Below are positions 14,083 through 39,959 of a DNA stretch of 64,000 nucleotides, one piece after another. Position 1 is the first letter of the stretch; every line of letters starts with the position of its first letter. The notes under the pieces were generated by a model. That model was not told the origin of the DNA and did not search any database. It saw only the letters and a program-made list of their open reading frames with translations. A program made the position numbers and the translations under genes. The stretch is from Bacteroidia bacterium (GTDB taxonomy: Bacteria; Bacteroidota; Bacteroidia; B-17B0; Aurantibacillaceae), in assembly GCA_044360115.1 (NCBI GenBank), contig JBIKKW010000001.1:6123-70122 (forward strand), in the 5' to 3' direction.

Positions 14083-16035
14083 ATGAGCAGTCATCATCAA
14101 AACCACTTAAGCAAGATAACTTTAAGTGGATTAATTGTTACCCTAGGTATTATTTATGGTGACATTGGAACATCCCCTCTTTACGTAATGAAAGCTATTG
14201 TTGGCGACAGGGCCATTAACAGCGATCTGATCATTGGAGGTATGTCTCTTGTATTTTGGACAATTACATTACAAACTACCATTAAATATGTGGTTTTTAC
14301 ATTAAAAGCAGATAATAAAGGTGAGGGTGGGATTTTTTCGTTATATACTTTAGTTAAAAAAGCAAGAGTTAAATGGCTCGTTTTCCCTGCCATTATAGGT
14401 GGTTGTTGCATATTAGGTGAAGGTATTATTACGCCGCCCATTTCAGTAGCATCCGCCGTTGAAGGATTGCGACTAATACCCAGTTTAAGTGAAATACCTA
14501 CCATTCCAATTGTAATAGCCATTATTACCGGTTTGTTTTTTATACAACAGTTTGGTACAAAATTTATAGGTAAATATTTTGGTCCTGTAATGCTTGTTTG
14601 GTTCATCACATTGGGTGTTGTTGGTTTAGTTGGATTAACGCATGATTTTACAGTACTTAAATCTTTAAATCCTTATTACGGTATTAATTTATTAGTTAAT
14701 TACCCTGGAGCATTTTGGTTACTGGGCGCTGTTTTTCTTTGTACTACAGGTGCCGAAGCGCTTTATTCTGATATGGGCCACTGTGGCAGAAAAAACATTC
14801 GTATCAGCTGGATATTTGTAAAATCCATGCTTGTTTTAAATTACATGGGTCAAACTGCTTGGTTAATTTCAATGGAAGGAAAAACACTTAACGGTGCCAA
14901 TCCTTTTTATGCGATTATGCCAAATTGGTTTTTACCTTTTGGTATTGGAATTGCTACTATTGCTACTGTTGTTGCCTCTCAGGCATTGATAAGTGGTTCG
15001 TTTACTCTTATTAATGAGGCAATGCGTTTAAATTTTTGGCCTAAGGTAAAGATCAAATACCCAACAGAATTAAAAGGACAAATGTATATCCCTTCTATTA
15101 ATTGGTTGTTGTATTTTGGCTGTGTTGCAGTTGTGTTGTTTTTCAAGGAATCATCAAACATGGAGGCGGCATATGGATTAACCATTATTTTAGGAATGAT
15201 CATGTCTTCACGATTATTGGCTTTTTTCATGCGAATAAAAAAATATCCGATTTGGTTTCTTTACCTGTTTATTGTGGTTTACATTGTAGTTGAAGCTGCA
15301 TTTTTAGTTGCCAATCTTGAAAAGTTCCCTAAAGGAGGTTATATAACTTTAATTATTGCCTTGGTTTTGGCCGGAGTTATGGGCTCGTGGTACATGGCAA
15401 AATTGATCAGACAGCGCTATGTGGATATGGTTAAATTATCTGAACATCAAAGCAAATTGGTTGATCTTAGTAGAGATGAAAGTATTCCTAAATACGCAAC
15501 ACATTTAGTGTATATGACCAGCGCCAACAATCCTGAAGAAATTGAATCGAAAGTGATTTATTCCATCTTGCAAAAACGACCAAAACGTGCCGATATTTAT
15601 TGGTTTGTTCATGTGGATGTAATGGATGAGCCATACCAAATGGATTATAAAGTAACTCATGTTGTTGAAGATGATATTATTCGTGTTGATTTCAGATTAG
15701 GCTTTAGAGTTGCGCCACGTATCAATTTAATGTTCAGAAAAGTTGTTGAGGATCTTGTTAAAAATAAGGAAGTGGATATTACCAGTCGTTACGAATCCTT
15801 AAACAAGAATAATATTATTGGTGATTTTAAATTTGTGGTGATCGAAAAATATTTGTCATACGATAATGAGTTGCCATTCTTTGAAAAAATCATTCTAAAT
15901 TTCTACTTCTTCTTTAAACGCTTAAGTTTAAGTGAGTCGCGTGCGTTTGGTTTAGATACGAGTTCGGTTAAGGTAGAAAAATTCCCGATGGTGTTTAAAA
16001 TGCCTGATGATATTAACCTGAAAAGGATATTTTAA
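14083..16035 (+). CDS. kup: KUP/HAK/KT potassium transporter
   Basis: GIIYGDIGTSPLY, ADNKGEGG, TGAEALYSDMGH, SQALISGSF. Confidence 0.97.
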   Translation: MSSHHQNHLSKITLSGLIVTLGIIYGDIGTSPLYVMKAIVGDRAINSDLIIGGMSLVFWTITLQTTIKYVVFTLKADNKGEGGIFSLYTLVKKARVKWLVFPAIIGGCCILGEGIITPPISVASAVEGLRLIPSLSEIPTIPIVIAIITGLFFIQQFGTKFIGKYFGPVMLVWFITLGVVGLVGLTHDFTVLKSLNPYYGINLLVNYPGAFWLLGAVFLCTTGAEALYSDMGHCGRKNIRISWIFVKSMLVLNYMGQTAWLISMEGKTLNGANPFYAIMPNWFLPFGIGIATIATVVASQALISGSFTLINEAMRLNFWPKVKIKYPTELKGQMYIPSINWLLYFGCVAVVLFFKESSNMEAAYGLTIILGMIMSSRLLAFFMRIKKYPIWFLYLFIVVYIVVEAAFLVANLEKFPKGGYITLIIALVLAGVMGSWYMAKLIRQRYVDMVKLSEHQSKLVDLSRDESIPKYATHLVYMTSANNPEEIESKVIYSILQKRPKRADIYWFVHVDVMDEPYQMDYKVTHVVEDDIIRVDFRLGFRVAPRINLMFRKVVEDLVKNKEVDITSRYESLNKNNIIGDFKFVVIEKYLSYDNELPFFEKIILNFYFFFKRLSLSESRAFGLDTSSVKVEKFPMVFKMPDDINLKRIF

Positions 16036-33073: not shown

Positions 33074-34960
33074 TTATAATAAAAACGTAAACAATAAAAT
33101 AAATACAATGCTCAACATCATGGTGATCATATAAAAGCTGATGTTACCTTGTTGCAACAATCTTACAACACTACCTAATCCTTTTACTGTGCTGCCAACT
33201 CCTTCAACCATACCATCAATGATCTGCTTATCTACAAACTTATAGAACACGCCAGAGATAGCATCTAGCGGCTTTCTTACAGCTGCATCATAGATCTCAT
33301 CTACATAATATTTATTATAAATGGTTTTTTGCAATGCCGGCATTTTATCGCCTTCACTTAATGGAATGATGTTACGCTGACGGTAGATCACATAAGCTAC
33401 ATAGATCATTGCAAAAGCTGCAACAACAGCAATACCCATTAACATCCATTCTGTTTCGTGATTCAATGTGCTTGGGTCTTTTCTTAAGATCAATGGTGAT
33501 AAATGTTCGCCAACAAAATTTGGCATGTGCCAAAATTCAGGTAAACCTAACAATCCACCGCCTACTGATAAAATTGCCAATACGATCAAAGGAATGGTCA
33601 TAGCAGCAGGTGATTCATGTAAATGATGGTGTTGCTCTTTTGTGCCTCTGAAACTTCCCCAGAATGTTAAGAACATTAAACGGAACATATAGAAAGCAGT
33701 TAACATAGAGGTTAACATGCCAAAGAACCATAATACAGGACTGTGCTCATACACATGCGCCAAGATCTCATCTTTTGAGAAGAAACCCGATAAGCCCGGA
33801 ACGCCACTGATAGCTAATGTTCCAAGGAACATGGTCAAAAATGTTCTTGGTAAAGCGCCTTTTAATCCACCCATTTTGCGGATATCTTGTTCGCCACCCA
33901 TTGCGTGAATTACTGAACCGGCACCTAAGAATAATAAAGCTTTAAAGAACGCGTGTGTTGTTACGTGAAATACGGCGCTGCTATAAGCACCAACACCTAA
34001 ACCCAAGAACATTAAACCTAATTGCGATACGGTAGAATATGCCAATATCTTTTTAATATCGTTTTGGAACAAGCCTATGGTAGCGGCAAACAAGGCTGTT
34101 GCCACACCAACAATTGCAACTACTTCAGATGCAACCTCGCTTATTGAATAGAACACGTTTGAACGAACGATCATGTAAATACCCGCAGTTACCATGGTTG
34201 CCGCGTGAATTAACGCCGATACAGGAGTTGGACCCGCCATCGCATCCGGCAACCAAGTGTATAAAGGAATTTGTGCCGATTTACCCATGGCACCAATAAA
34301 TAACAACAGTGCAATTGCAGTGATGGTTCCTTGAGATGCTGTACCTGCTTTTGCAAACACATCGCTATAACTGATACTTCCAAAGGTTACAAAAATTAAA
34401 ATAATGCCTAATAAAAATCCTAGGTCACCAATACGATTCATCACAAAAGCCTTACGTGCCGCGTTGTTGTAATCTGTATTCTTGAACCAAAAACCGATCA
34501 ATAAATAAGAGCACAAACCTACACCTTCCCAACCTACGAACATGATCAAGAAGTTGTTTCCTAAAACCAATAATAACATAAAGAACACGAACAAATTCAA
34601 ATAAGTGAAGAAGCGTGAGAAGCCTTCATCGTCGTGCATATAAGAAGTTGAATACACGTGGATCAAGAAACCAATTCCGGTGATGATCAATAAGAACCAG
34701 GTTGATAATGGATCAACCACAAACTCGAACGGAATAGATAATGCGCCTGCATTGATCCATGAAAATAAATTCACAGTTTGCGAATGCTCCGGCAAATGAC
34801 GCGCTTCTAAAAACACTAATAACGACACTGCGAACGAAGCTAAAATAGCGCCCGATGCAATAATTCCGGATAAAGATTTGCTCATCTTTTTTCCGAAAAA
34901 GCCGTTGATTAAAAACCCTATCAAAGGGAATAATGGAACTAAACCTACTAACTTGATCAT
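33074..34960 (-). CDS. nuoL: NADH-quinone oxidoreductase subunit L
   Basis: GKSAQIPLYTWLPDAMAGPTPVSALIHAATMV. Confidence 0.97.
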   Translation of the reverse strand: MIKLVGLVPLFPLIGFLINGFFGKKMSKSLSGIIASGAILASFAVSLLVFLEARHLPEHSQTVNLFSWINAGALSIPFEFVVDPLSTWFLLIITGIGFLIHVYSTSYMHDDEGFSRFFTYLNLFVFFMLLLVLGNNFLIMFVGWEGVGLCSYLLIGFWFKNTDYNNAARKAFVMNRIGDLGFLLGIILIFVTFGSISYSDVFAKAGTASQGTITAIALLLFIGAMGKSAQIPLYTWLPDAMAGPTPVSALIHAATMVTAGIYMIVRSNVFYSISEVASEVVAIVGVATALFAATIGLFQNDIKKILAYSTVSQLGLMFLGLGVGAYSSAVFHVTTHAFFKALLFLGAGSVIHAMGGEQDIRKMGGLKGALPRTFLTMFLGTLAISGVPGLSGFFSKDEILAHVYEHSPVLWFFGMLTSMLTAFYMFRLMFLTFWGSFRGTKEQHHHLHESPAAMTIPLIVLAILSVGGGLLGLPEFWHMPNFVGEHLSPLILRKDPSTLNHETEWMLMGIAVVAAFAMIYVAYVIYRQRNIIPLSEGDKMPALQKTIYNKYYVDEIYDAAVRKPLDAISGVFYKFVDKQIIDGMVEGVGSTVKGLGSVVRLLQQGNISFYMITMMLSIVFILLFTFLL

Positions 34961-34961
34961 A

Positions 34962-35273
34962 CTAATTCTTTAAATTGCTTAATAAATCGGTGTCAATGCT
35001 CTTCACATTTCTGTAAATCATACTTAATATGGCCAAACCAACCGCTACTTCCGCGGCCGCCACTGCCATAATAAAGAACACAAATACTTGTCCTTTTGCA
35101 TCGTTATGCAAAGTGCTGAACGATACTAATAATAGATTAACCGCGTTCAACATCAATTCAATACACATGAAAATGATGATGGAGTTGCGACGAGCCATAA
35201 CGCCAATTGAACCTATTATAAAAAGGATCGCGCTAAGCAAAATGTAATAGTTTATTGAAATTCCGTTGATCAT
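34962..35273 (-). CDS. nuoK: NADH-quinone oxidoreductase subunit K
   Basis: [22 protein letters not shown]. Confidence 0.97.
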
Positions 35274-35294
35274 CTTTTATTTACAATTTTATTT

Positions 35295-35694
35295 ATTTAC
35301 AATTGACAATTTTTGTTTCTCATTTATTATTTCTTTTAGCTGTTATTGCAGAGGCAGCGAATATTCTTTCTAACTCTCTAGACTCTTTTAATAACAACTC
35401 AAATTTTGCGTCTTCAATTTTATTGTATTCTTTTATTAGTTCAAGCCAATAAACAGATTCATCCGACTCCTCTTCAACAATTTTTAATTTATTGATAAAA
35501 TCCGCACTTGATTTCGCTTTACATGCCGCTCTGTAATTAGCTCCCACAGAAGTTGCAGACCTCATCACTTGCCTTCCCATTATTTCATTTGCCGATGATT
35601 TCTTTAATACATCAATTGTTTTTAATGTGTTGATGGCAAATTCAAATGTTCTCTTTTTTAATATTTCAGGTGTTAAAGTCATTCAATTGTAAAT
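35295..35694. repeat. Perfect 12-bp inverted arms (ATTTACAATTGA at 35295-35306, TCAATTGTAAAT at 35683-35694) within 7-nt repeat arrays flanking the four-helix-bundle gene
   Basis: Read directly from sequence; further TTACAAT/TGACAAT-type units lie on both sides. Confidence 0.85.
35320..35682 (-). CDS. Four-helix-bundle protein (TIGR02436 / 23S rRNA IVS-protein / Avd-like)
   Basis: RQVMRSATSVGANYRAACKAKSSADFINKLKIVEEESDESVYWLEL signature. Confidence 0.93.
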   Translation of the reverse strand: MTLTPEILKKRTFEFAINTLKTIDVLKKSSANEIMGRQVMRSATSVGANYRAACKAKSSADFINKLKIVEEESDESVYWLELIKEYNKIEDAKFELLLKESRELERIFAASAITAKRNNK

Positions 35695-35724
35695 CGTCAA
35701 TTCTTCTTAATTTGTCAATCTGAG

Positions 35725-36237
35725 TTATTTCGTTTCTTTTTTACCAATTAAAATTGCTCCTACCAAGGCCGCTAACAATAATACTGAAGCGATCTCGAAT
35801 GGGAATAAAAAGTCTTTGAATAATACTTTACCCAAATTCTTAACTAAACCAATTTGCGGTGAACCATATACCGTTAACGATAATTGTTCTGAACCTTTTA
35901 ATGATCCTACCAATACAAATAACATTAAGCCACCGGCAACTGCTGCAATGATCTTGGTAAGCCATGTTTTTTGGGGCTCACTATCTTCATTTAAATTCAT
36001 TAACATGATAATGAAGAGGAAGAGAACCATGATAGCGCCTGCGTAAACAACTATGTGTACAATTGCCAAAAACTGCGCGTTCATTAATAAATAATGTCCG
36101 GCAATACAGAAAAAAGTTAACACCAAATACAATACGCTGTTTACCGGGTTACGGCTAAACACCACTAATAATCCAAACATGATCGCAAGGAAGGAAAGTA
36201 TCCCGAATAGCCATTGCGTTATTGTGTATCCTAACAT
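35725..36237 (-). CDS. nuoJ: NADH-quinone oxidoreductase subunit J
   Basis: VYAGAIMVLFLF, FPFEIASVLLLAALVGA. Confidence 0.96.
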   Translation of the reverse strand: MLGYTITQWLFGILSFLAIMFGLLVVFSRNPVNSVLYLVLTFFCIAGHYLLMNAQFLAIVHIVVYAGAIMVLFLFIIMLMNLNEDSEPQKTWLTKIIAAVAGGLMLFVLVGSLKGSEQLSLTVYGSPQIGLVKNLGKVLFKDFLFPFEIASVLLLAALVGAILIGKKETK

Positions 36238-36244
36238 ATTTTTT

Positions 36245-36303
36245 ATTTACGATTTAAATATTTACGATTTACAATTGTCGATTGTAAATTTAAAATTGTC
36301 AAT
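36245..36303. repeat. Head-to-head 7-nt repeat array (gene-less copy of the four-helix cassette arms)
   Basis: ATTTACGAT twice, then ATTTACAATTG+TCGATTGTAAAT (36267-36289), then ATTGTCAAT. Confidence 0.8.
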
Positions 36304-36307
36304 TATT

Positions 36308-36916
36308 TTAATGTTTCCCTTTGTTAATTGCTTTTCCATCATAAAGCGTGTTGTGCTTGGTTCCAGGTAACTTTTTAAACTCCGCTACCTCCAAGGTTTG
36401 ACGCTTGGTCACATCAATTCGCTTATCAATCTTTTCTACTAATTTATCTTTACCATATACAAAGGTTTCGCGCTCGTATTCTGCATCCACAATTCTATCC
36501 GTTAAAAAGATCGCCTCTTTCGGACAAGCCTCTTCACACAATCCACAGAAGATACAACGTAACATATTGATCTCATACTTCGAAGCATATTTCTCTTCTC
36601 TGTATAAATGCTCTTCTCCTTTTTTACGCTCCGCGTTCTCCATGGTAATGGCTTCAGCCGGACAAGCAACCGCGCACATACCACAAGCTGTGCAACGTTC
36701 TGCTCCGTTCTCATCACGCTTCAACACGTGCTGACCACGGTATACAGGTGCTATAGGGCGTTTTTGTTCAGGATATTTTGTTGTTGGTGTTTTCTTGAAC
36801 AAGTGACTAAAGGTGATCAACATCCCCTTTACAATTGCCGGCAAATAAAGGCGCTCCGTAAAGCTTTGCTCTTTATTTGAAACCATTTTACTTCTATTTG
36901 TTAGTTGTAATGCCAT
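36308..36916 (-). CDS. nuoI: NADH-quinone oxidoreductase subunit I
   Basis: Two CxxCxxCxxxCP motifs (CTACGMCAVACP, CIFCGLCEEACP). Confidence 0.97.
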   Translation of the reverse strand: MALQLTNRSKMVSNKEQSFTERLYLPAIVKGMLITFSHLFKKTPTTKYPEQKRPIAPVYRGQHVLKRDENGAERCTACGMCAVACPAEAITMENAERKKGEEHLYREEKYASKYEINMLRCIFCGLCEEACPKEAIFLTDRIVDAEYERETFVYGKDKLVEKIDKRIDVTKRQTLEVAEFKKLPGTKHNTLYDGKAINKGKH

Positions 36917-37028
36917 TTGTTTTTTATTAAATCACTGAAATAATTGCGATCAGTATAAGCGCCCAAACTTCAGTCGCTTCGCCGATCTTATTAATCATAC
37001 TTATTATTTTTATTCCTTTATTCATGTA

Positions 37029-39098: not shown

Positions 39099-39959
39099 TT
39101 ATTCTTTCACTATTTTTTTTGTGATCACCGAATTGTCTTTTGTAGTTACATCCACAAAATAAATTCCGTTTGTTAATCCTGTCAGATCAATGATCTCAAT
39201 CTTTTTAACTGCGCTCACTGTTCTAACGATCTTTCCATCACCCGATCTTACTTCTATCTTTTTGATCTCAATGGTTGATGTAACTTCAATTTTATCTTTC
39301 GTTGGATTTGGGAATATTTGTAACACTACGTTTTGTTCGTTTGCTTTAATGCCTAAGGTGTTGTTATATTCGATCACATAATAAATAGAATTAGTTAATG
39401 CAATATCATTCCATTCACCTGCTATGCCAAAAGGCCAAGCCGAAACAGCCATAGCGGCGCCATCCTGATTCGAATTAAAATCGTCAGGTTCCTGAATACT
39501 TGAATTAGATTTTCCTCCCCAATTTACAAATTGACTTAAAACTACCGTTCCATTGCCTGCTCCTGCTAAACCCTGACCATTCCAGAAATTCCCGCCGGTT
39601 GCATCATTGTTTCCGTCCCATATCCACGAACCTTCATTGAATTTATCGGTTGCACCGATCCAAACATAAGATGCGCCACCACCATCACCAACCGGACTGT
39701 AGTTTGATGCAACACCTGCAGCAACAATTCCATTATATACTGCTGTTTGTTCGCCCTGACTATTGATCTCAACCAGTGAACCACCACGTTGAACGGCACA
39801 AGTTGCAGCAGCTGTCCATGTTTTAGCTTCTTTTACAACTTCGTATGTTGTTCCGTTGAATGTAAACGAATAAATGTTCACCGCACTGGCGCACGAAGTT
39901 TGTGCGTTCACTGTGAACACCATTACGGTAAAAATAATTATGTAAAGTGCTTTATTCAA
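39099..39959 (-). CDS. C-type lectin domain protein with T9SS type A CTD
   Basis: Signal peptide; WIGATD...EGSW.W, EPDD and GEWND motifs; CTD IFPNPTKD...GIYFV...KKIVKE. TTG start directly follows the nuoF stop. Confidence 0.88.
   Translation of the reverse strand: MNKALYIIIFTVMVFTVNAQTSCASAVNIYSFTFNGTTYEVVKEAKTWTAAATCAVQRGGSLVEINSQGEQTAVYNGIVAAGVASNYSPVGDGGGASYVWIGATDKFNEGSWIWDGNNDATGGNFWNGQGLAGAGNGTVVLSQFVNWGGKSNSSIQEPDDFNSNQDGAAMAVSAWPFGIAGEWNDIALTNSIYYVIEYNNTLGIKANEQNVVLQIFPNPTKDKIEVTSTIEIKKIEVRSGDGKIVRTVSAVKKIEIIDLTGLTNGIYFVDVTTKDNSVITKKIVKE

What the first reader, a model, noticed from the sequence alone, without database searches (positions are those of the whole stretch)
36245..36303. 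Apparent empty site: the cassette's two arms fused with no gene at nuoI-nuoJ
Seen: 36267-36289 reads ATTTACAATTG+TCGATTGTAAAT, which is the left arm (11 of 12 nt) joined directly to the right arm (11/12 match) of the cassette about 570 bp away. Extra ATTTACGAT units lie on the left and ATTGTCAAT on the right. Inference: an excision footprint, a pre-insertion target, or a non-autonomous derivative.
Basis: partly seen in the sequence, partly recalled or inferred. Interest (0 to 1): 0.72.

Follow-up and report, generated by a model that had tools for sequence, protein, structure and literature searches.

The report
Gene-less heptamer-repeat hairpin between nuoI and nuoJ
The 70-base gap between two respiratory-complex genes is a gene-less hairpin built from nine 7-base repeats of the same kind that flank a small four-helix-bundle gene one junction away; comparison with 73 related species shows it belongs to a fast-turning-over family of junction hairpins and is not the scar of a lost gene.

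Summary
The nuoI-nuoJ spacer (36238-36307) is a run of nine heptamers. Four are TTKACAA-type and about five are their complement, TYGTAAA-type. Its core is ATTTACAAT-TGTCG-ATTGTAAAT, and each half matches an arm of the four-helix-bundle (PF05635) cassette at nuoJ-nuoK in 11 of 12 bases.

- **Not an excision scar:** none of 74 genomes of the genus has a four-helix-bundle gene at nuoI-nuoJ, and decayed cassettes at nuoJ-nuoK leave ORF fragments or single arms, not neat fused arms.
- **Not a pre-insertion target:** empty nuoJ-nuoK sites are clean (0-25 nt).
- **Best reading:** a gene-less member of a dispersed arms-only hairpin family. This genome has at least three other copies, and the genus gives 63 pattern hits against 7 for the control.

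These hairpins sit at many operon junctions and change type between sister species (at least 35 state changes at this junction). As RNA this copy is weak (-6 kcal/mol, z -0.56). The class shows no sense-strand folding bias, which argues for a DNA-level palindrome rather than an mRNA stability element.

The hairpin's repeat type tends to match the neighbouring cassette allele (13 of 16 genomes; 3 of 3 informative contrasts), but this is not significant. No propagation mechanism is shown.

The parts
36238..36307 (-). nuoI-nuoJ intercistronic spacer, 70 nt. In mRNA sense it reads as nine heptamers: TTGACAA TTTTAAA TTTACAA TCGACAA | TTGTAAA TCGTAAA TATTTAA(A) TCGTAAA TAAAAAA. This is the gene-less type-A inverted heptamer-array hairpin.
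   Evidence: Sequence; period-7 self-identity 0.63; 9-bp core stem in the RNA fold; spacer is 9 nt in the closest hairpin-free relatives.
36267..36289 (.). Core palindrome ATTTACAAT-TGTCG-ATTGTAAAT: a 9-bp stem with a 5-nt loop. This is the 'fused arms' of the finding.
36245..36268 (+). Outer units ATTTACGAT x2 (36245-36253, 36260-36268), part of the plus-strand 5' array.
36295..36303 (+). Outer unit ATTGTCAAT of the plus-strand 3' array.
35274..35724 (-). nuoJ-nuoK cassette: a type-A heptamer arm (42 nt), a 120-aa four-helix-bundle gene (allele A), and a type-A inverted arm (46 nt).
   Evidence: perfect 12-nt inverted repeat 35295-35306 / 35683-35694 (I13).
35320..35682 (-). Four-helix-bundle protein gene (PF05635 58 bits; TIGR02436 77 bits; PDB 2RLD E 6e-18).
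35725..36237 (-). nuoJ, lying between the gene-less hairpin and the cassette.
   Evidence: PF00499, E 9.5e-44.
36308..36916 (-). nuoI (two 4Fe-4S domains).

Best explanation
The nuoI-nuoJ spacer is a gene-less ('arms-only') copy of an inverted heptamer-array hairpin element. It is of the same type-A repeat family whose two arrays flank the four-helix-bundle gene at the next junction.

**Shown here.**
- It is an insertion relative to hairpin-free relatives, whose spacer is 9 nt.
- It belongs to a small dispersed family in this genome: nuoI-nuoJ, two hairpins between convergent genes on contig C60, one on C161, plus the cassette arms.
- It belongs to a genus-wide family that sits at many operon junctions.
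- These hairpins turn over very fast. Sister species carry different repeat types, or nothing, at the same junction.
- They show no sense-strand folding advantage.

**Inferred.**
- The element exists and is kept symmetric at the DNA level: slippage within each array, and template switching or palindrome correction between arms.
- It reached this junction by being copied as an arms-only unit, not by loss of a gene at this site.
- It is tolerated because it sits exactly between the nuoI stop codon and an A-rich leader before the nuoJ start codon.
- When transcribed it would form a weak stem. By analogy with ORF-less 23S rRNA intervening sequences, RNase III might cut that stem, but this is untested.

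This particular copy is short and partly eroded.
For: - **Arms match the cassette:** 11 of 12 bases on each side, and 17-18 nt at 94% complementarity.
- **Heptamer periodicity:** self-identity 0.63 at shift 7.
- **Other gene-less type-A copies:** C60:15222-15294, C60 about 15350-15424 and C161:612-667. The opposite arrangement and shuffles give none.
- **Genus-wide family:** 63 hits against 7 for the control.
- **Spread across the nuo operon:** congeners carry type-A and type-B gene-less hairpins at the nuoA-B, B-C, C-D, D-E, K-L and M-N junctions.
- **Insertion at this site:** close relatives L002, L003, L033, L034, L036 and L038 have a 9-nt nuoI-nuoJ spacer.
- **Turnover:** at least 35 state changes at nuoI-nuoJ on a 74-tip tree. 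The orthologous C60 and C161 sites hold a different hairpin type in almost every close relative.
- **No gene ever at this junction:** 0 of 74 genomes have a four-helix-bundle gene at nuoI-nuoJ.
- **The cassette itself does not move:** allele A (at least 73% identity) is found only at nuoJ-nuoK in the whole genus, so the arms-only copies at other sites cannot each be a gutted local cassette.
- **No strand bias:** the sense fold is better in 17 spacers and the antisense in 24; G-U pairs are 67 of 862 against 73 of 847.
Against: - No copying mechanism, enzyme or target-site duplication was found.
- The family is small in this genome (4 gene-less copies).
- This copy folds no better than shuffles (z -0.56; z -1.0).
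- Internal deletion of a cassette does occur: L017 keeps both arms plus the ORF ends. An ancient cassette at nuoI-nuoJ that was completely gutted therefore cannot be excluded.
- Hairpins recur at the same nuo junctions in many species, which could also reflect selection for an intercistronic function.
Confidence: 0.55

Rival explanations
1. In-situ gutted cassette. A four-helix-bundle cassette once sat at nuoI-nuoJ and lost its gene by internal deletion, leaving the two arms fused.
For: - Internal deletion happens at the neighbouring site. L017's 182-nt nuoJ-nuoK spacer aligns to both ends of an allele-A cassette (L066 1-65 at 91% and 371-455 at 78%) and has lost about 305 nt of ORF.
- Other remnants exist at that site: L035, L046, L058, L070.
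Against: - 0 of 74 genomes have the gene, or recognisable ORF fragments, at nuoI-nuoJ.
- Loops of the roughly 40 hairpins at this junction are only a few nucleotides long.
- Allele A and allele B genes occur only at nuoJ-nuoK.
- Same-type gene-less hairpins sit at many other junctions where no cassette is known.
Confidence: 0.15
2. Selected intercistronic RNA element. The hairpin is kept because it processes, stabilises or tunes translation of the long nuo mRNA, and its likeness to the cassette arms is incidental.
For: - Hairpins recur at the same junctions of the nuo operon in many species and always leave an A-rich leader before the next start codon.
- As a class the nuoI-nuoJ spacers fold better than shuffles: median z is -2.9 for type A, -2.4 for type C and -2.4 for type D.
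Against: - This copy is weak: -6 kcal/mol, z -0.56.
- It has no G+C-rich stem or T-run, and no Rfam match.
- There is no sense-strand advantage (17 against 24; G-U pairs 67 against 73).
- About 30 of 73 scorable genomes have a nuoI-nuoJ spacer of 27 nt or less, including close relatives.
- The same hairpin types occur between convergent and unrelated genes.
Confidence: 0.15
3. Pre-insertion target. The hairpin is the attachment site into whose loop a four-helix-bundle gene can insert.
For: - Gene-less hairpins are far more numerous than cassettes.
- Every cassette gene sits exactly at the centre of such a hairpin.
Against: - nuoI-nuoJ hairpins are never filled in 74 genomes.
- Empty nuoJ-nuoK sites are clean, and gene-less hairpins seen there are of types C, D and F, not A or B.
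- Arm type and gene allele are perfectly linked (18 of 18), as expected if arms and gene travel together.
Confidence: 0.05
4. Chance resemblance of AT-rich low-complexity spacers.
For: - The genome is 36% G+C.
- Single 9-mers such as ATTTACAAT are only about 1.5-fold enriched genome-wide, by my estimate from the counts.
Against: - Composite array patterns never occur in shuffles or in the reversed arrangement.
- Period-7 structure is clear.
- The architecture is conserved across 14 type-A orthologues.
Confidence: 0.02

Closest known systems
Intervening sequences (IVS) of 23S rRNA, both ORF-less (Salmonella type, about 100 nt) and ORF-bearing (Leptospira; Coxiella burnetii S23p; PMC4990558)
   Same: - A stem formed by terminal inverted repeats.
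- The Coxiella IVS has tandem heptamers (GACAGAT) next to a PF05635-family ORF.
- Gene-bearing and gene-less versions both exist.
- Distribution among relatives is patchy.
   Different: - It sits between protein-coding cistrons, not in an rRNA helix.
- RNase III excision is untested here.
- The stem is much weaker (9-bp core against 28 bp in Coxiella).
Intergenic heptamer repeats: GGGAATC arrays of Xanthomonas and GGGGAYT arrays of Nostoc (PMC4692102), TAACTGA arrays of Beggiatoaceae, Cyanobacteria and Bacteroidetes (PMC4679880), cyanobacterial STRR
   Same: - Tandem 7-nt units in intergenic regions, typically a few units per array.
- Xanthomonas has 70-75 convergent (inverted) pairs.
- Arrays often lie just upstream of start codons.
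- Function is unknown.
   Different: - Those papers do not link the arrays to a four-helix-bundle gene.
- The units here are AT-rich and cannot form quadruplexes.
- Here the two arrays abut to make one hairpin.
MITEs and REP/BIME elements
   Same: - Short, gene-less, palindromic and extragenic.
- Multi-copy, with presence/absence polymorphism between relatives.
- A longer gene-bearing relative shares the ends.
   Different: - No target-site duplication.
- Only about 4 copies of this type in the genome.
- The gene-bearing relative encodes no transposase or RAYT-like enzyme, and it stays at one site in the genus.
bAvd, the accessory protein of diversity-generating retroelements (same PF05635 fold family, per PMC10053308)
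   Same: The neighbouring cassette protein is of the same family, which from my own knowledge is a pentameric nucleic-acid-binding four-helix bundle.
   Different: No reverse transcriptase or template/variable repeats were seen in the operon junctions examined, and the feature under study has no gene at all.

Membership tests
23S rRNA intervening sequence (IVS) | Inserted in a 23S (or 16S) rRNA helix | tested here: not met
   It lies between nuoI and nuoJ. No rRNA or other Rfam match in 34800-36500.
23S rRNA intervening sequence (IVS) | Terminal inverted repeats forming a stem | tested here: met
   9-bp core stem plus outer pairs, but weak: -6 kcal/mol, z -0.56.
23S rRNA intervening sequence (IVS) | Excised from the transcript by RNase III without religation | not testable with these tools
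PF05635 four-helix-bundle cassette with inverted heptamer arms (class recorded repeatedly in this scan) | PF05635/TIGR02436 ORF between the arms | tested here: not met
   The loop is 5 nt and holds no ORF. The neighbour at 35320-35682 does have the ORF.
PF05635 four-helix-bundle cassette with inverted heptamer arms (class recorded repeatedly in this scan) | Two arrays of tandem heptamers in inverted orientation | tested here: met
   Nine heptamers, self-identity 0.63 at shift 7; arms match the cassette's arms.
MITE | Target-site duplication flanking terminal inverted repeats | tested here: not met
   No shared direct repeat at the borders of the nuoI-nuoJ, C60 or C161 copies, or between filled and empty sites.
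MITE | Autonomous partner with the same ends encoding a transposase | tested here: not met
   The partner with the same arms encodes only a 120-aa four-helix-bundle protein. It occurs only at nuoJ-nuoK in the genus.
REP/BIME | High copy number (tens to hundreds) of one palindrome family | tested here: not met
   3-4 gene-less type-A copies in 3.1 Mb.
REP/BIME | Associated RAYT (IS200/IS605-like) transposase | not tested
   The genome was not searched for RAYT genes.
Intrinsic terminator / mRNA-stabilising hairpin | Stable G+C-rich stem (followed by a U-run for terminators) | tested here: not met
   No terminator-like site in the spacer. The stem has a single G-C pair and is otherwise A-U, at -6 kcal/mol. 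No sense-strand bias across 42 such spacers.
Intergenic heptamer simple-sequence repeats (STRR / GGGAATC / TAACTGA type) | Tandem 7-nt units in intergenic DNA, sometimes as convergent pairs | tested here: met
   the convergent arrangement is as described for Xanthomonas in PMC4692102.

The most novel reading that the evidence does not exclude
Each four-helix-bundle allele and the heptamer it is flanked by form a cognate pair, and arrays of the resident allele's type are seeded or converted at nearby junctions.

Support so far:
- The nuoI-nuoJ hairpin type matches the nuoJ-nuoK allele in 13 of 16 genomes.
- It switched together with the allele in all 3 informative independent contrasts.
- The sister genomes G000 (A/A) and G078 (B/B) differ at both junctions, although nuoJ between them shows no sign of import.

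This would make the pentameric protein a sequence-specific reader, or propagator, of 7-nt repeats.
Probability: 0.2. Interest if true: 0.8.

Novelty: new variant of a known kind. Interest (0 to 1): 0.55.

Why it matters
Intergenic heptamer repeats and rRNA intervening sequences have both been described for decades without an accepted origin or function.

This locus, with 73 congeneric comparisons, shows several things:
- Gene-less inverted heptamer hairpins and four-helix-bundle cassettes share arms.
- The gene-less form is the commoner and more mobile one, while the gene-bearing form stays at one site.
- Junctions switch repeat type between sister species.
- The constraint looks symmetric, at the DNA level, rather than mRNA-specific.

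That narrows the possible mechanisms. It also gives a clean test system: alleles A and B with their type-A and type-B arrays can be used to ask whether the protein reads its own repeats.

Tried and rejected
- **Known RNA families and signals:** Rfam at permissive threshold gave nothing. The sigma-70 promoter and terminator scan was not above shuffles. No TAnnTTTG box is present in the spacer (by eye).
- **General hairpin census:** a single-antidiagonal search found 103 hairpins against 37 in the control. It mixes terminators, REP-like families and heptamer hairpins, and it misses gapped ones such as this spacer, so I did not use it for counts.
- **Type-B marker:** AATCTTAAATCTTA with 1 mismatch was too noisy against its control to test dependence on allele B. 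It showed only that several genomes without allele B have clear excesses.
- **dN/dS of the cassette gene:** synonymous sites are saturated. Only dN could be compared, at 0.144 against 0.148 for nuoJ.
- **Cassette tree against nuo tree:** too poorly resolved to show horizontal transfer.
- **Block import of the A/A haplotype:** rejected for G000 and G078, because they are each other's nearest neighbours in all four flanking coding segments.
- **Long inserts at nuoI-nuoJ in L007, L012, L023 and L066:** these are lipoprotein genes without arms, not four-helix-bundle genes.

Full report
**Observation**

The nuo operon runs on the minus strand:
- nuoI, 36308-36916
- nuoJ, 35725-36237
- a 120-aa PF05635/TIGR02436 four-helix-bundle gene, 35320-35682
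- nuoK, 34962-35273

- ATTTACAATTG (36267-36277) is joined to TCGATTGTAAAT (36278-36289).
- Each half matches one arm of the cassette in 11 of 12 bases. The cassette arms are 35295-35306 and 35683-35694, a perfect 12-nt inverted repeat (I13).
- ATTTACGAT units lie at 36245 and 36260, and ATTGTCAAT lies at 36295.
- Longer matches to both cassette arms reach 17-18 nt at 94% complementarity.

Read in mRNA sense, the whole spacer is nine heptamers: TTGACAA TTTTAAA TTTACAA TCGACAA | TTGTAAA TCGTAAA TATTTAA(A) TCGTAAA TAAAAAA. Self-identity is 0.63, 0.54 and 0.55 at shifts 7, 14 and 21, against about 0.25-0.3 at most other shifts.

Controls show this is not chance:
- ATTTACAAT occurs 9 times in the window against 2.9 expected.
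- Forward-array-then-reverse-array clusters occur 3 times in the genome. There are 0 in the opposite arrangement and 0 in local shuffles.

**The family in this genome**

- The genome is 3.1 Mb, 36% G+C and in 267 contigs. Records that match its relatives are titled as uncultured Bacteroidota/Flavobacteriales MAGs.
- It has nine PF05635 genes, and each is flanked by its own kind of short-unit inverted arrays.
- Gene-less type-A hairpins lie at three further places:
  - two between a convergent histidine-kinase gene and an unidentified 467-aa ORF on C60 (15222-15294 and about 15350-15424);
  - one between two co-directional ORFs (196 and 383 aa) on C161 (612-667).
- At least two other cassettes have same-type gene-less arrays elsewhere in the genome: the TATAAGA type on C55 and the CAGATTG type on C260.
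- Other gene-less hairpin types in the genome have no resident cassette.

**Relatives**

The genus holds 76 species-level genomes. I read the nuoI-J-K region of 74 loci, including this genome's own.

*At nuoI-nuoJ:*
- No genome has a four-helix-bundle gene.
- About 30 have a spacer of 27 nt or less, and 9 nt in several close relatives.
- About 14 have a type-A hairpin and about 11 a type-B hairpin (TTAGATT/TAAGATT ... AATCTTA).
- Five have type C (CAAGAC/GTCTTG) and four have type D (period 8).
- Four have unrelated lipoprotein genes without arms.

*At nuoJ-nuoK:*
- 11 genomes have allele A with type-A arms, and 7 have allele B (about 50% identical to A) with type-B arms.
- Arm type and allele are linked in 18 of 18 genomes.
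- Most others are clean (0-25 nt).
- Remnants show how cassettes decay:
  - L017 keeps both arms and the two ORF ends (it aligns to L066 1-65 and 371-455).
  - L058 keeps a left arm only.
  - L070, L043 and L071 keep right-arm residue only.
  - L035 keeps a type-B arm plus the first codons.
  - L046 has a type-B arm and seven allele-B codons followed by a complete allele-A cassette, which indicates replacement.
- Gene-less hairpins of types C, D and F also occur at this site.

*Where the genes are:* allele A (at least 73% identity) and allele B occur only at nuoJ-nuoK anywhere in the genus.

**Dispersal and turnover**

- The pattern ATTTACAAT-N0-30-ATTGTAAAT gives 63 hits in 27 of 76 genomes, against 7 for the reversed control. 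Many of these genomes have no allele-A gene.
- In ten fully read nuo operons, gene-less hairpins of mixed types sit at the A-B, B-C, C-D, D-E, I-J, J-K, K-L and M-N junctions.
- On a tree built from nuoI, nuoJ and nuoK coding DNA, nuoI-nuoJ needs at least 35 state changes and nuoJ-nuoK at least 30.
- Tight clades hold three different hairpin types at one junction: L010 has B, L056 has D and L059 has C.
- The orthologous C60 and C161 sites carry a different hairpin type, or none, in almost every close relative.

**Link to the neighbouring cassette**

- The hairpin type at nuoI-nuoJ agrees with the nuoJ-nuoK allele in 13 of 16 genomes, counting remnants.
- Among the 14 genomes with an intact cassette and a type-A or type-B hairpin, phylogenetically independent contrasts give 3 concordant, 0 discordant and 1 unchanged. 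That gives p = 0.25, which is too few to conclude anything.
- The sister genome G078 has an identical NuoJ protein and is the nearest neighbour in all four flanking coding segments (90-94% nucleotide identity). Yet it is B/B where this genome is A/A. The two junctions therefore changed without import of the nuoJ gene between them.
- This is suggestive of coupling, not proof.
- Against a strict dependence, type-A and type-B arrays are common in genomes that lack the matching allele.

**RNA or DNA?**

- As RNA the spacer folds at -6 kcal/mol, with z -0.56 against dinucleotide shuffles. The antisense strand folds better, at -12.1 kcal/mol.
- As a class the spacers fold better than shuffles: median z is -2.9 for type A, -2.4 for C, -2.4 for D and -1.0 for B.
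- Across 42 junction spacers of known transcription direction:
  - the sense strand folds better in 17 and the antisense in 24;
  - G-U pairs are equally frequent, 67 of 862 against 73 of 847.
- An element selected as mRNA structure should favour G-U pairs on the sense strand. The symmetry therefore argues for a DNA-level palindrome, or a symmetric binding site.
- No Rfam family, terminator or above-chance promoter signal is present.

**Conclusion**

The feature is real. It is a gene-less inverted heptamer-array hairpin of the same arm family as the adjacent cassette.
- It is not an excision scar of a gene at this site.
- It is not a pre-insertion target.
The caveats are that the gene-less form is the commoner and more mobile one, that the gene-bearing form stays put, and that no mobilising activity is known.

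How these hairpins are copied or regenerated remains inference. My proposal is slippage within arrays plus template switching between arms, possibly helped by the four-helix-bundle protein.

**Closest published relatives**

- ORF-less and ORF-bearing 23S rRNA intervening sequences; the Coxiella one has heptamers beside its S23p ORF (PMC4990558).
- The unexplained intergenic heptamer arrays of Xanthomonas and Nostoc (PMC4692102).
- The heptamer arrays of Beggiatoaceae, Cyanobacteria and Bacteroidetes (PMC4679880).

In three full-text searches and the three papers opened, I found none linking such arrays to this gene family. Earlier notes of this scan describe similar gene-less twins in other genomes. 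I treated those as leads only.

Noticed in passing
window 36927-37025 (minus strand), in the nuoH-nuoI spacer: A 32-aa hydrophobic ORF (MNKGIKIISMINKIGEATEVWALILIAIISVI) fills the 112-nt nuoH-nuoI gap. Spacers of about 97-111 nt with similar small ORFs occur at the same junction in several congeners (L085-L088, L090), while others have 4-14 nt. It may be an unannotated small membrane peptide of the complex I operon.
   Followed up: partly
own genome, 10 sites (for example C31:19661, C107:26529, C161:2097); relatives L079, L086, L174, L190: A 16-18-nt perfect palindrome, (T)CCGATAGCTATCGG(A), occurs 10 times in this genome. In relatives it is nested inside heptamer hairpins at four unrelated loci. 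It looks like a tiny element that inserts into other repeats.
   Followed up: partly
L046 (G072) nuoJ-nuoK spacer: A composite site: a type-B arm plus the first seven codons of an allele-B gene, followed directly by a complete allele-A cassette. This is a natural record of one cassette replacing, or nesting in, another.
   Followed up: partly
window 39099-39959 (minus strand) and the nuoF-nuoG junction in relatives: The 286-aa ORF between nuoF and nuoG (called a lectin-like secreted protein by another first-stage note) is matched at that junction in G078 and G066. Other congeners have different inserts of 144-1025 nt at nuoF-nuoG, so this junction is also a hotspot for passenger genes.
   Followed up: no
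L007, L012, L023, L066: nuoI-nuoJ junction: One or two genes for small proteins of about 145-170 aa are inserted between nuoI and nuoJ in four congeners, without repeat arms. Three of them (L007, L012) begin with a hydrophobic stretch and a Cys and look like lipoproteins.
   Followed up: partly
L067 (G054) nuoJ-nuoK spacer: A 616-nt insert carrying an unrelated 178-aa ORF sits at the site where other genomes carry the four-helix-bundle cassette.
   Followed up: no
L180 (G058), orthologue of the C60 site: A one-sided array of about eight TCACTGC heptamers sits where this genome has two type-A hairpins, which shows recent array expansion.
   Followed up: no
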